From NCBI RefSeq assembly GCF_009914755.1, contig NC_060930.1: a DNA stretch of 64,000 nt; one strand, 5' to 3'. Below, in pieces: positions 44,693-49,400 of the stretch. The notes beneath the pieces are model-generated. The model did not search any database. It had not been told where the DNA came from and was given only the letters and a program-made list of their open reading frames with translations. Both the position numbers and the translations under genes were made by a program. The stretch comes from the human T2T-CHM13v2.0 reference genome, Homo sapiens. Within the stretch, counting starts at the first letter, position 1, and the number at the start of each line of letters is the position of its first letter.

Positions 44693-45629
44693 GAGTCCTT
44701 TATTTTTAAACTTTATATATCTTTATATTTAAAATGGGTTTCTGTAGCCAACATATAGTTAGGTCTTGTTTCTTGTTCTACTCTGATAATGTGTTTTTTA
44801 AATGATGTACTTAAACGTTGATGTTCAAAGTGATTATTGATACAGTTGGATTGATATCTACCATATTTGCTGCTATTTTCTATTTCTTGCCCTTGGTCTT
44901 TGTTCCTCTTTCTGTTATGGTTTTAGTTGAATATTTTATATGATTCTGTTTCCTCTTCTCTCCTAGCATATTAATTACACTTTTTAACTTTTTGTGTGGT
45001 TGCCCTAGAGTTTGCAATATACTTTTGCAACTAATCCAAATTGACTTTCATATAACACTATATACCACTTCATGCATAGTATGAACCCCTTATGCAAATT
45101 TTCCCTTTCTGTTCCTTGCATCACTGCTGCCATTTATTTCATGTATACATAAGCATACATGCACATAAGCAGATGTAATTGAATATATTGTTGTTATTAC
45201 TATTTTGAACAAACTTTAGATCAATTAAGAATAAGAAAAATAAAAGTTTTTATTTTACCTTCATTTATTCCTTCTTCAATGCTTTTCTTTAGTTAGATCC
45301 AAGTTTCTGAACTACATCATTTTTCTTCTCTCTAAAGAACTTCTTTTTTTTTTTATTTTTTATTTTTTATTTTATTTTATTTTTTTTTACGAAGATCTTA
45401 TAGCTTTTATTTTAAAATTTTAGTCACGAATCAGTAATACAATTGGCTTATCTCCACTTATATTTTTATTCAAATTGTGCTTCTGACAAAAATCGGACAA
45501 GTTAAGGCTACTTGCTCACACGGCTAAAGCATATTTTAAAAATAAAATTTGTGGAAAAGACAATATTTTTTCGTTGCCAGTTTCCAAATAGTTTCTCCTC
45601 CTTTTTTAAAAAGAAAAACCAAGCTTCTT

Positions 45630-46413
45630 TTTTTTTTTTTTCATTCTATTTCATTTTATTTTGTCTTTTCTTTTTTTTTTTTTTTTTTTTACATTTTTTT
45701 TTTTTAAATTTATTTTTTTATTGATAATTCTTGGGTGTTTCTCACAGAGGGGGATTTGGCAGGGTCATGGGACAATAGTGGAGGGAAGGTCAGCAGATAA
45801 ACAAGTGAACAAAGGTCTCTGGTTTTCCTAGGCAGAGGGCCCTGCGGCCTTCCGCAGTGTTTGTGTCCCTGATTACTTGAGATTAGGGATTGGTGATGAC
45901 TCTTAACGAGCATGCTGCCTTCAAGCATCTGTTTAACAAAGCACATCTTGCACCGCCCTTAATCCATTTAACCCTGAGTGGACACAGCACGTTTCAGAGA
46001 GCACAGGGTTGGGGGTAAGGTCACAGATCAACAGGATCCCAAGGCAGAGGAATTTTTCTTAGTGCAGAACAAAATGAAAAGTCTCCCATGTCTACTTCTT
46101 TCTACACAGACACGGCAACCATCCGATTTCTCAATCTTTTCCCCACCTTTCCCGCCTTTCTATTCCACAAAGCCGCCATTGTCATCCTGGCCCGTTCTCA
46201 ATGAGCTGTTGGGCACACCTCCCAGACGGGGTGGTGGCCGGGCAGAGGGGCTCCTCACTTCCCAGTAGGGGCGGCCGGGCAGAGGCGCCCCTCACCTCCC
46301 GGACGGGGCGGCTGGCCGGGCAGGGGGGCTGACCCCCCCCACCTCCCTCCCGGACGGGGCGGCGGCAAAGACTGAGACAGCTCCGCTGCCCGCTGAACTC
46401 CATCCTCCCGGCC
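45630..46413 (-). mobile_element. SVA_F1 body (MAST2 fragment, short VNTR, SINE-R, compound poly(A))
   Basis: SINE-R about 45706-46215; GC-rich VNTR about 46216-46363; inner 15-bp TSD AAAACCAAGCTTCTT at 45615-45629 and 46414-46428. Confidence 0.95.
46359..46412 (-). other. MAST2: Transduced MAST2 exon 1 fragment (SVA_F1 hallmark; not the gene itself)
   Basis: Minus strand cgggaggatggagttcagcgggcagcggagctgtctcagtctttgccgccg translates as REDGVQRAAELSQSLPP, which I recognise as the MAST2 N-terminus. Confidence 0.9.
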
Positions 46414-49400
46414 AAAACCAAGCTTCTTAACAAAGATCCTGAAGTGTTGAGTTTACTAATTTAGTTCAAGAACTTCTTTTAACATATCATACAACTCAGA
46501 TCTCCTGGCAACAAAGTCCCACAATTTTTGTTTGCCTAAGAAAGTTTTATTTCTTCTTCACTTGTGAAGAATATTTTTGCAGGGCACAAAATTTTTGGCT
46601 GGTGTTTTTTTTTCAACATTAAATATTTCACTTCACTTTCTTCTTTTTTTGAATGGTTTCTGCTGAGAAATTGGATGTAATTCAATTTCTATACCACTTC
46701 ATGCGTAGTGTGAGTGCCTTGTAATAGTAAGGTAGTACTCTTCTATAGGTAAGGTTATTTTTCCTCTGACTTCTTTCACTAACTTTGATTTTCTGTAGTT
46801 TGGATATGATATACTAAGTGTACTTTTTTTGCCATTTATTCTGTTTGGTATTCTCTGAGCTTTCTGGATTAGTGTCTGACATACATTGGTGGGAAATTTT
46901 TACTCATTATTGTTTCAAATATTTCTTCTGTTATTTTTTCCCTTTCTTTCCCTTCTGGTATTCCTATTATGTGTATGTTATACCTTTTGCAGTTTTTCCA
47001 CAGTTCTTGGATATTGCTCTTTTTTTTTCTTTTTTTGATCTGCTTTGCGGTTTCAAAGGTTTCTATTTAAATATCCTCAAGCTTAGAGATTCTTTCCTTA
47101 GCTCTGTCCAGTCTGCTAATAAGCTCTAAAGGCAGACTTCATTTCTGTTTCAGTGGCTTTTTGTGTATGTGTGTCTCTAACATTTTTTTTTCATTCTTTC
47201 TTAGAACTTCCATCTCTCTGCTTACATTGCCTGTCTGTTTTTGCTTTCAATCTACTTTATTCGTCAGAGTCCTTAGCATCTTAATCATAGTTATTTTAAA
47301 ATATCTTGTCTGACAATTCCAACATCCCTGCCATATCCAAGTTTGGTTCTGATGTTTGCTTTGTCTCTTCCAACTGTGTGTTTTTTGCTTTTGTTTTGTT
47401 TTGTTTTTGCCTTTTAGTATGCCTTATACTTTCTTCTTAATAGCTGGACATAAAGTAAAAGGAACTGCTGGGTAAAAGGAACTGCTGTAAACAGGTCTTT
47501 AGTAATAGGCGAGTTGGTGTGAAAGGAGGGGACGTATTCTATCGCTCTATAGTTAGGTCTCAATCTTTTAGTGAACCTGTGCCTCTGGACTTTGAACCTT
47601 ACAAGTGATTCTCAGCTGTCTGCTTCTCCCTTAGCTGGGAAAGAATGCCTACAGTGGACTAGAGTTTTTCCTTCCCCTGTGTAAGTTAGGCATCCATAAA
47701 ACCCTGGCAGGTTAGCCTCTGGTTAAACAGTTTCCTCTGAGGGCATACCTTGTTAAGAACAGAATGAAGCATTTATTAAGCTGACCAATTTTGTTCTTCA
47801 TAGCATTATGTGATTCCGAAACTTCCAGTTAACTTCAGTTTTTAGCCCCACTTCTTACTCCATCTTCTATGCTAGCTAATTCTGAGTTTGGAGACGCCCT
47901 AGATTTTTGCTGGAAAGTCCTCCTTTCTCCACTGTGGGCACTCAATATGTTTTAAAAGCTATAGCTTTCTCTACCTTGTTTCATTTATGAATAACTTCAT
48001 AATCTTTTTTCTCTGGAAATGGCTTTCCTCATAATCTACTCATCTTTAAAGGGTACATCTTTAAACATATACTTTAAAAATTACTTTACTCTCATTTTAT
48101 TAAGATTTTCTCATTTGCCATCTTGAATCATGCTGTTTTTGATTCTAAAACAGTGTTTATTGATTGATTTATTGGGATTGACTCAATTTTTATTTTATTT
48201 TACACAGTCTTTTATTATTACAGAGGTACAAGTACAGTGCAGAAAATTAGAAAACACAGACAAAAGTTTAAAGAAATTAAGATAATTCCAGAAATCACCT
48301 CTGTGCATCCTTCCAGATCTAACTGTCTTTCTGGCCACCTATCTACCTACTCCTACAACAAAATTTTTTAAATTAAAAAAGACTATGCAGTACATACCTA
48401 CATACCTTTTTTGTAACTTATTTTTTCAATAAACTCTACCCTTCTATTTTAGTAAAATTTCATTGCACCTCATACTGAGACCATATTCAAACTTCTCCAG
48501 CTGAGTCCCAAATATTCTTAGTATTGCATCTGATCTTTAAGTTGCTTTAAACTCTTTTGATCAAGCACAACTTCTCTTTCATAACACATATTTATTATAT
48601 GTGTTATTATATGCGTTATGTAAATATGACCAGAGACCTGGTCAATTTCCTTGAAGAATGTTAAAAACTCTGTGTTTATAAACTCTCTGGGTCTATCTGA
48701 TGGTGTCTTCATTTTCCTCCTGATTCCTTTCTTCCTTTATCCTTCACTTCCTTTAATTATTTTACTTCCTTTATTCCTCTTTAGTTTGCTTTTTCTTTCT
48801 TCTTCCTGTTCTTGTTCTCCTTTCCGCTCCTCCTCCTTCTGTAATTGAATTTCTCTATTCCCTCTGTATCCTGAAAACAGGAATCATCCTTGGAAAGCTT
48901 GATGAATTCAAGTTAAACATCTTTGTCTAGAATACAATGTAGGTGATTTTGTGGGTTTCTTGTTGAATCATATCAGAGGACACATTCTATCTAGTTGACT
49001 CACCAATAGTAATGCATAGGTGGGCCACTGGATCTGGATGATGACAGTCTAATCCTTTTATTGCACAGGAGTGTTTTGCCCTGAGACACTAGAAAGTAAC
49101 TTGTGTCAAGTGTGGTTCTTGCTTTCACCTAAGTGATTTTAACATGACTTGGTAATACTTGCCTAGGTCAATAAGAGGGTTTGGAAAATTATGTTTTTAA
49201 AATCCTATAATTTCTTCTACATTTATTAGCTTAAGTGTTCTGTAAATTAGAGAAATCCATCATCAGCTGTGATTAGTTGTTACTTTGAAAGGCTGGATAA
49301 ATGCTCAATTTCTTTCTTTTAATTACCAATCATCAAAGTAAAAGTAGTTTGAAGAGTTACTGCTGATAGCAATATGAAATTTTCCCAACTTTTTCCTTTT

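What the first reader, a model, noticed from the sequence alone, without database searches (positions are those of the whole stretch)
45335..46480. Nested SVA_F1: two TSD pairs and simultaneous 5' and 3' transduction
Seen, reading the minus strand: outer TSD (46480-46468), 39 bp unique sequence (46467-46429), inner TSD (46428-46414), MAST2/VNTR/SINE-R, poly(A), inner TSD again (45629-45615), about 225 bp unique sequence with AATAAA at 45411-45406, 17 nt, poly(A) (45388-45348), outer TSD (45347-45335). Both TSDs sit at L1-endonuclease-like sites (TT/AAAA, TT/AAGA), and the host L1M rejoins perfectly across the outer one. Established: SVAs are mobilised in trans by L1, SVA_F1 is human-specific, and 5' and 3' transductions occur. 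Inference: a source SVA elsewhere was transcribed from an upstream host promoter, read through its own tail, and was copied here with both flanks and its own TSDs. That would barcode a source locus. The flanks are not the Alu-containing transductions I associate with the best-known SVA_F1 master, so this may be a separate lineage.
Basis: partly seen in the sequence, partly recalled or inferred. Interest (0 to 1): 0.9.

Follow-up and report, generated by a model that had tools for sequence, protein, structure and literature searches.

The report
SVA_F1 copy carrying both source flanks
This is a shortened copy of a human SVA_F1 jumping element that was copied from a still-present parent on chromosome 1 together with short pieces of the parent's flanks on both sides, a correct reading but an ordinary, well-documented kind of event.

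Summary

- **Source found.** It is a 1,875-nt SVA_F1 on the minus strand of chr1 (T2T C1:112,910,123-112,911,997). It is bounded by the same 15-nt duplication that appears as the "inner TSD" in the window.
- **What the chr6 insert holds.** One extra G, 38 nt of chr1 5' flank, the source's 5' TSD, an internally deleted SVA_F1, and the source's idiosyncratic A-rich tail. Then come the source's 3' TSD and 226 nt of chr1 3' flank, ending 17-18 nt after an AATAAA. A new 41-nt poly(A) and a 13-nt outer TSD at a TT/AAAA site close the unit.
- **Barcode.** Only chr1 and chr6 carry these flanks in this assembly.
- **Divergence.** The two copies differ by 5 substitutions in about 989 compared bases.
- **Deletion.** The chr6 copy lacks 1,098 nt: most of MAST2, the Alu-like piece and most of the VNTR. 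The breakpoints share a 5-nt microhomology.
- **Independent lineage.** The source keeps only 129 nt of MAST2 and is not of the chr10 Alu-flanked lineage.

Simultaneous 5' and 3' transduction is already well documented: 32 of 543 non-reference SVAs in one 2025 survey. This is a clean new example, not a new mechanism. Interest is low.

The parts
46468..46480 (-). outer TSD, 5' copy (AAAAGAAGTTCTT), preceded by TT = TT/AAAA L1-endonuclease-type site
   Evidence: D9; paralogs of the host repeat hold one copy
46467..46467 (-). one extra G not present in the chr1 source: untemplated (cap-derived) or filler nucleotide
   Evidence: (chr1 matches query 2-68 only)
46429..46466 (-). 5' transduction: 38 nt identical to chr1 112912050-112912013
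   Evidence: 0 differences in 108 nt from 46466 to 46359
46414..46428 (-). inner TSD, 5' copy = the source element's own TSD (AAGAAGCTTGGTTTT), copied as part of the RNA
   Evidence: (D8)
46359..46413 (-). extra G (46413, also in the chr1 source) plus 54 nt of MAST2 exon 1 sequence; the last 5 nt (GCCGC) are the deletion microhomology
   Evidence: same sequence in the MAST2 gene copy C1:45681143, which is followed by a GT donor
46218..46358 (-). VNTR remnant (3'-most ~140 nt of the source's ~1.1-kb VNTR); a 1,098-nt internal deletion relative to chr1 lies between 46359 and 46358. The lower boundary is approximate
   Evidence: period 37 array 46236-46312; D3, D4
45717..46217 (-). SINE-R module ending in the SVA's own AATAAA (45722-45717), which was read through
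   Evidence: 3' end matches many SVA copies; the module name is from established SVA structure
45630..45716 (-). source element's idiosyncratic A-rich tail (A runs broken by TGT and by a ~29-nt A/G/T-mixed stretch), inherited from chr1
   Evidence: apart from the query's own place, only chr1 matches the whole 118-nt query at 93%; differences are A-run lengths only
45615..45629 (-). inner TSD, 3' copy (source's own TSD)
45389..45614 (-). 3' transduction: 226 nt of chr1 112910107-112909882 (1 substitution, at 45572), with AATAAA at 45411-45406
45348..45388 (-). new poly(A) tail (A runs with 5 interspersed T), added 17-18 nt after the flank AATAAA; chr1 continues with unrelated sequence here
45335..45347 (-). 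outer TSD, 3' copy

Best explanation
The chr6 element is an L1-mediated retrocopy of a read-through RNA made at an SVA_F1 on chr1 (T2T C1:112,910,123-112,911,997, minus strand; roughly GRCh38 chr1:112.896 Mb).

Proposed steps:
1. The RNA began at or upstream of C1:112,912,050, which is 53 nt upstream of the SVA.
2. It ran through the source's 5' TSD, the SVA, the SVA's own AATAAA and A-rich tail, and the 3' TSD.
3. It was cleaved and polyadenylated 17-18 nt after an incidental AATAAA, 226 nt into the chr1 flank. That flank is an old interspersed repeat.
4. L1 endonuclease nicked a TT/AAAA site inside an old L1-like repeat on chr6. The RNA was reverse-transcribed there, giving a 41-nt poly(A) and a 13-nt TSD.
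5. A 1,098-nt stretch (MAST2 remainder, Alu-like piece, most of the VNTR) is missing from the chr6 copy, with 5 nt of microhomology at the breakpoints. I infer a template jump during reverse transcription or a later deletion.

Shown: the parent-offspring relation, the direction, the boundaries, and the poly(A) site. Inferred: L1 as the machinery, the RNA start point, and the timing of the deletion.

The source keeps only 129 nt of MAST2. I infer that it depended on transcription from its flank.
For: - **3' flank.** With the 3' TSD it matches chr1 over 241 of 241 nt with one mismatch. Of the 22 matches, only the chr1 place and the query's own place are near-identical; the other 20 are 68-90% and partial.
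- **5' flank.** With the TSD and MAST2 start it has 2 of 2 matches: its own place and chr1.
- **Structure on chr1.** chr1 holds a complete SVA_F1 between two copies of the inner TSD.
- **Divergence.** 0 differences in 108 nt on the 5' side. On the 3' side, 5 substitutions plus A-run length changes over 46363-45389.
- **Polarity of the changes.** At three CpG sites chr6 keeps the base of other SVA copies (36 of 36, 11 of 13, 9 of 9) while chr1 has changed. At 45839 chr6 has changed (9 of 9 others agree with chr1). So the differences arose after copying.
- **Direction.** The chr1 flank runs on past both ends of the copied pieces. Its 3' side stays collinear with old repeat paralogs to about 767 nt.
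- **Target site.** The chr6 site rejoins over one 13-mer in 10 of 11 paralogs.
- **Deletion junction.** It is spanned only at the window's own place: 1 of 40 scored, out of 49 candidates.
- **Short MAST2.** The source's 129 nt is the shortest of the 29 F1 copies examined; the other 28 have 133-383 nt.
- **Literature.** Weak SVA termination with read-through, untemplated 5' G and 5' microhomology are described for SVA (passages of PMC3287187).
Against: - **No orthologous empty site** could be examined. There is no ape genome or other human haplotype among the tools, so the age and the empty allele rest on paralogs only.
- **The 5' end is ambiguous.** The extra G fits a capped RNA starting at C1:112,912,050. 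But the 8 nt just upstream on chr1 (AAGTTCCT) match the end of the outer TSD (AAGTTCTT) in 7 of 8 positions. That fits a longer RNA truncated and joined by microhomology.
- **An intermediate copy** absent from this assembly, using the same ends, would leave the same structure.
- **The source is not in the active-source catalogue.** PMC12593883 Table S8 lists 10 SVA_F1 sources of non-reference insertions, and none has this TSD. There is therefore no independent sign of activity.
Confidence: 0.93

Rival explanations
1. Two independent insertions at chr6: first an orphan retrocopy of a ~280-nt chr1 transcript end, then an SVA_F1 landing inside it.
For: Nested TSD pairs alone would allow it.
Against: The chr1 locus carries an SVA_F1 at the identical position, with the identical 15-nt TSD and the same odd A-rich tail. 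Two independent insertions would not reproduce all three.
Confidence: 0.01
2. Same retrocopy event, but the RNA was a long host or read-through transcript starting far upstream on chr1. The cDNA was 5'-truncated and joined to the target by microhomology. The 38 nt would then not mark a transcription start, and the SVA was a passenger as much as a driver.
For: - 7 of 8 nt identity between chr1 positions -8 to -1 and the 3' end of the outer TSD. I estimate chance at about 1 in 1000.
- Microhomology at SVA 5' junctions is described (PMC3287187 passages).
- The source is 5'-short.
Against: - The extra G between the TSD and the first chr1 base is not expected from simple microhomology priming. It is what cap copying gives (passages).
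- A TTAAAAG stretch lies 31-25 nt upstream of the first copied base, though such strings are common in A/T-rich DNA.
- The described SVA microhomologies are 1-2 nt, not 6-8.
Confidence: 0.4
3. The chr6 copy descends from chr1 through an intermediate copy, now lost or absent from this assembly. That copy already carried both flanks and perhaps the deletion.
For: An intermediate transcribed from its own first base to the same transduced AATAAA would leave no extra mark. PMC12593883 infers several lost sources (passages).
Against: No third locus carries either flank (2 near-identical places of 22 matches; 2 of 2). No other locus carries the deletion junction (1 of 40 scored). There is no extra nested TSD or poly(A).
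Confidence: 0.05
4. DNA-level duplication or gene conversion between chr1 and chr6, without an RNA step.
For: High identity over about 1 kb.
Against: - Homology ends exactly at a cleavage site 17-18 nt after AATAAA and is followed by poly(A).
- The unit is framed by a 13-nt TSD at TT/AAAA.
- The host repeat is otherwise intact.
Confidence: 0.005

Closest known systems
[quoted passage not shown]
   Same: Flank sequence on both sides enclosed in one TSD and traceable to one source locus. The source's own TSD is carried along; that paper describes 'ultra-short 3' TDs' that are the source TSD.
   Different: This is a copy present in the T2T reference with its parent. Its source (TSD AAGAAGCTTGGTTTT) is not among the 55 sources of that paper's Table S8. 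The transductions carry no Alu, unlike 79 of 87 transduction-carrying SVA_F1 insertions in that paper (passage).
chr10 SVA_F1 master H10_1 / CH10_SVA_F lineage (PMC3287187, PMC10681720, PMC12593883; passages only)
   Same: An SVA_F1 that reads through its weak terminator and passes flank sequence on both sides to its offspring.
   Different: H10_1 offspring carry AluSc (5') and AluSp (3'). Here the source's TSDs abut MAST2 and the tail directly, and the flanks are 38 nt and 226 nt of non-Alu chr1 sequence. There is one known offspring rather than dozens.
Canonical SVA_F1 (MAST2 exon 1 spliced to the SVA_F Alu-like region; Damert 2009, Hancks 2009, Bantysh & Buzdin 2009, cited through PMC12593883 and PMC6139936; the originals could not be read)
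   Same: [quoted passage not shown]
   Different: The source keeps only 129 nt of MAST2; 'full length' is defined as more than 320 nt in PMC12593883 (passage). The chr6 copy keeps 54 nt and has lost the MAST2/Alu-like junction in a 1,098-nt deletion.

Membership tests
SVA_F1 | 5' end made of MAST2 exon 1 sequence | tested here: met
   46412-46359 and the chr1 source match the MAST2 gene copy C1:45681143, which continues into a GT donor and intron. The chr6 copy keeps only 54 nt.
SVA_F1 | MAST2 exon end joined to the 3' part of the SVA Alu-like region (splice junction) | tested here: inconclusive
   The junction is present in the chr1 source: it reads exactly as in F1 copy L035, with MAST2 stopping at the last base before the gene's GT donor (L037). 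It is deleted in the chr6 copy. Membership of the chr6 copy therefore rests on descent from the source.
SVA_F1 | VNTR, SINE-R, AATAAA and A-tail | tested here: met
   TRF period-37 array at 46236-46312. The 3' end matches many SVA copies (40 scored of 650 candidates). AATAAA is at 45722-45717.
SVA_F1 | Human-specific insertion | not testable with these tools
   No ape genome is available. About 0.5% divergence from the source fits a young insertion but does not prove it.
L1-mediated retrotransposition with 5' and 3' transduction | Both flank pieces map next to one source element at a single other locus | tested here: met
L1-mediated retrotransposition with 5' and 3' transduction | New poly(A) at a downstream poly(A) signal in the source flank; the whole unit inside one TSD at an L1 endonuclease-type site | tested here: met
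   AATAAA at 45411-45406, then 17-18 nt, then poly(A) at 45388-45348. The 13-nt TSD sits at TT/AAAA.
L1-mediated retrotransposition with 5' and 3' transduction | Intact empty target site | tested here: inconclusive
   10 of 11 paralogs of the host repeat are contiguous over one copy of the 13 nt. An orthologous or allelic empty site could not be examined.
chr10 (H10_1) SVA_F1 lineage | AluSc 5' and/or AluSp 3' transduction derived from chr10 | tested here: not met
   In the source the TSD copies touch the MAST2 start and the A-tail. The chr6 flank pieces match only chr1 at high identity.

The most novel reading that the evidence does not exclude
The chr1 element is an uncatalogued SVA_F1 source independent of the chr10 master. 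It is 5'-short (129 nt of MAST2, so lacking most of the GC-rich exon that is reported to act as internal promoter). It was nevertheless mobilised, because a cryptic start in its flank, marked by the cap-derived G at 46467, and a cryptic AATAAA in an old repeat supplied the two ends of the RNA. This would be a concrete case of flank-driven rescue of a promoter-poor SVA.
Probability: 0.35. Interest if true: 0.3.

Novelty: new member of a known kind. Interest (0 to 1): 0.2.

Why it matters
- It gives a fully resolved parent-offspring pair for SVA_F1 outside the dominant chr10 lineage, with exact RNA end points.
- It provides a 38-nt and a 226-nt barcode with which siblings can be sought in pangenomes.
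- It shows that a 5'-short SVA_F1 can still be copied when its flank supplies the start and the terminator.
- It documents a 1.1-kb microhomology deletion linked to a retrocopy.

It does not change what is known about SVA biology.

Tried and rejected
- **Splicing as the cause of the 1,098-nt gap.** Rejected: no GT lies at or within the 5-nt microhomology on the left breakpoint (sequence).
- **Siblings or offspring.** Searches with the 3' flank, the 5' flank, the tail and the deletion junction found none in this assembly. These searches score only the best candidates: 40 of 650 for the tail and 40 of 49 for the junction.
- **A gene 3' end as origin of the flank poly(A) site.** The chr1 3' flank is part of an old interspersed repeat that continues past the site. 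Gene annotation of the chr1 locus was not available, so this remains open.
- **Naming the host repeat.** Of 15 stop-to-stop frames scanned against Pfam, 1 gave a sub-threshold L1 ORF1 dsRBD hit and 14 gave nothing.
- **Literature.**
  - Five searches (the last with the four TSD strings) found no mention of this pair.
  - Damert 2009 (PMC2775593) and Hancks 2009 (PMC2775590), which catalogued the reference SVA_F1 copies, are not held.
  - Supplement access closed, so the tables of PMC10681720 and Tables S4-S6 of PMC12593883 were not seen. The pair may well be listed there.
- **Earlier findings of this scan** were not open.
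Full report
**1. The observation**

- AAAAGAAGTTCTT at 46480-46468 and again at 45347-45335.
- AAGAAGCTTGGTTTT at 46428-46414 and again at 45629-45615.
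- An SVA-like body between the inner pair.
- AATAAA at 45411-45406, then 17 nt, then an A-rich run at 45388-45348.

The repeat finder lists both pairs as exact two-copy families: D9 (13 nt) and D8 (15 nt). The bases before the 5' copies are TT, so the sites read TT/AAAA and TT/AAGA.

By themselves such repeats are not rare in this A/T-rich stretch. In 500 dinucleotide shuffles, 66 held some repeated 13-mer and 6 some repeated 15-mer. What makes them real is that they coincide with independently defined homology boundaries, described next.

**2. The source**

A search of the window's own assembly with the 3' TSD plus 3' piece (241 nt) gave 22 matches. Two were near-identical: the query's own place and C1:112,909,882-112,910,122, minus strand. 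The other 20 were 68-90% and partial, that is, members of an old repeat family.

The 5' piece with the TSD and the MAST2 start gave 2 matches of 2, the same two loci. chr1 matched from query base 2.

The chr1 sequence shows the following order:
- flank
- AAGAAGCTTGGTTTT (112,912,012-112,911,998)
- an extra G
- 129 nt of MAST2 exon 1
- an Alu-like fragment
- about 1.1 kb of VNTR
- SINE-R with AATAAA
- an A-rich tail broken by TGT and by a ~29-nt mixed stretch
- AAGAAGCTTGGTTTT again (112,910,122-112,910,108)
- flank

So the "inner TSD" of the window is the source's own TSD.

The MAST2 identity was tested. The same 128-129 nt occur at C1:45,681,143. There they are preceded by an ATG-containing exon sequence and followed by a GT donor and non-SVA intron, so this is the gene copy (L037). 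In SVA_F1 copies such as L035 the same sequence is followed by Alu-like sequence.

**3. Boundaries and direction**

- **5' end.** chr6-chr1 identity starts at 46466 (chr1 112,912,050).
- **3' end.** It ends at 45389/45388 (chr1 112,909,882/1), 17-18 nt after the AATAAA. chr6 then has poly(A), while chr1 continues with unrelated sequence.
- **chr1 flank is native DNA.** Its 3' flank stays collinear with old paralogs for about 767 nt, far past the poly(A) site. The terminator is therefore an incidental signal in an old repeat.
- **chr6 is the target.** On chr6, 10 of 11 paralogs of the host repeat run without a break across a single copy of the 13-mer. The eleventh (L063) had its best right-flank match about 290 nt away.
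- **Host repeat.** One of 15 frames of the host gave a sub-threshold L1 ORF1 dsRBD hit (E 2e-4, 21.8 bits against a 22.2 cut-off).

All of this makes chr1 the parent and chr6 the retrocopy. It excludes both DNA-level duplication and two independent insertions.

**4. How alike the two copies are**

From 46466 to 46359 there are 0 differences in 108 nt. From 46363 to 45389 there are 5 substitutions, plus length changes in A runs.

| Window position | chr6 base | chr1 base | Other SVA copies | Which copy changed |
|---|---|---|---|---|
| 46276 (CpG) | G | A | 36 of 36 G | chr1 |
| 46174 (CpG) | G | A | 11 of 13 G | chr1 |
| 45853 (CpG) | G | A | 9 of 9 G | chr1 |
| 45839 | C | T | 9 of 9 T | chr6 |
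| 45572 (3' flank) | G | C | not comparable | unknown |

Two non-CpG changes in about 989 nt suggest an age of the order of one to a few million years. This is my own rough inference from two events and it has a very wide error.

**5. The internal deletion**

chr6 lacks chr1 112,911,942-112,910,845 (1,098 nt). The missing part is the rest of MAST2, the Alu-like piece and all but the last ~140 nt of the VNTR. The breakpoints share GCCGC.

- There is no GT at the left edge, so splicing is unlikely.
- The junction is spanned only at the window's own place: 1 of 40 scored, from 49 candidates.
- Whether it arose by template jump during reverse transcription or by later deletion cannot be told from one haplotype.

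**6. The 5' end of the RNA**

Two readings remain.

- **(a) A true transcription start.** The G at 46467 is absent from chr1, and the source itself also has such a G. Untemplated 5' G is attributed to copying of the cap and is reported for SVA (PMC3287187 passages). A TTAAAAG stretch lies 31-25 nt upstream. This reading places the start at C1:112,912,050.
- **(b) Truncation with microhomology.** The 8 nt upstream on chr1 (AAGTTCCT) resemble the end of the TSD (AAGTTCTT) in 7 of 8 positions. That suggests a longer RNA whose cDNA was joined by microhomology.

I put these at roughly 60:40 and regard the point as open.

Either way the source needed outside help. It has the shortest MAST2 part of the 29 F1 copies examined, 129 nt against 133-383 nt in the other 28 (30 loci, one of which is the MAST2 gene). 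The MAST2 exon is said to act as internal promoter (PMC6139936 passage).

**7. Comparison with what is known**

- SVA_F1, its MAST2 origin, its 5' and 3' transductions and the chr10 master H10_1 with Alu flanks are established (passages of PMC12593883, PMC3287187, PMC10681720 and PMC6139936).
- In PMC12593883, 217 of 543 non-reference SVAs carry transductions and 32 carry both kinds (section 7). Table S7 lists 10 such elements outside the chr10 group and 22 inside it. The carrying along of a source TSD is also described there.
- That paper's Table S8 catalogue of 55 sources includes 10 SVA_F1 sources, and none has this TSD.
- The nearest listed F1 is the polymorphic LRIG2 SVA at GRCh38 chr1:113,068,817. 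It is absent from T2T, and its empty site is at C1:113,083,088. This gives an offset of about +14.3 kb and puts the source near GRCh38 chr1:112.896 Mb, about 173 kb from the LRIG2 SVA.
- The present case belongs to a separate, low-activity lineage without Alu in its transductions.

**8. Is it in print?**

Five literature searches found no mention of this pair. But the two 2009 catalogues of reference SVA_F1 elements are not held, and supplements closed. The pair may already be tabulated.

**9. Verdict**

The source is identified, together with its exact ends, its age class and an internal deletion. The kind of event is well known, so interest is low.

Noticed in passing
G000 C1:113083088-113083104 (outside the window): The polymorphic 'LRIG2' SVA_F1 of GRCh38 (chr1:113,068,817; TSD listed in PMC12593883 Table S8) is absent from this assembly. 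Its 17-nt target occurs once, unduplicated, about 173 kb from the source found here.
   Followed up: partly
L035 = G000 C1:46116097-46119225: An SVA_F1 with 299 nt of MAST2 sequence lies only about 436 kb from MAST2 exon 1 itself (C1:45,681,143) on the same strand.
   Followed up: no
window 45630-45716 and C1:112910123-112910206: The source's tail is not a plain poly(A). A runs are interrupted by TGT and by a ~29-nt mixed A/G/T stretch before a final A run. This could be a very short earlier 3' transduction from a grandparent locus or tail decay. Apart from the query's own place, no locus other than chr1 matched it over its whole length.
   Followed up: partly
window 46536-46688 (-): A stop-to-stop frame of the host repeat gives a sub-threshold match to the L1 ORF1 dsRBD-like domain (PF17490, E 2e-4). 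The SVA therefore sits in an old L1 in the same orientation, within or just after its ORF1.
   Followed up: partly
window 46359-46467 versus NCBI repeat mask 45590-46366: The hub's mask covers only the VNTR, SINE-R, the tail and the inner 3' TSD with the start of the 3' flank piece. The MAST2 piece, the 5' flank piece and most of the 3' flank piece are unmasked, so a mask-based view would miss the transductions.
   Followed up: no
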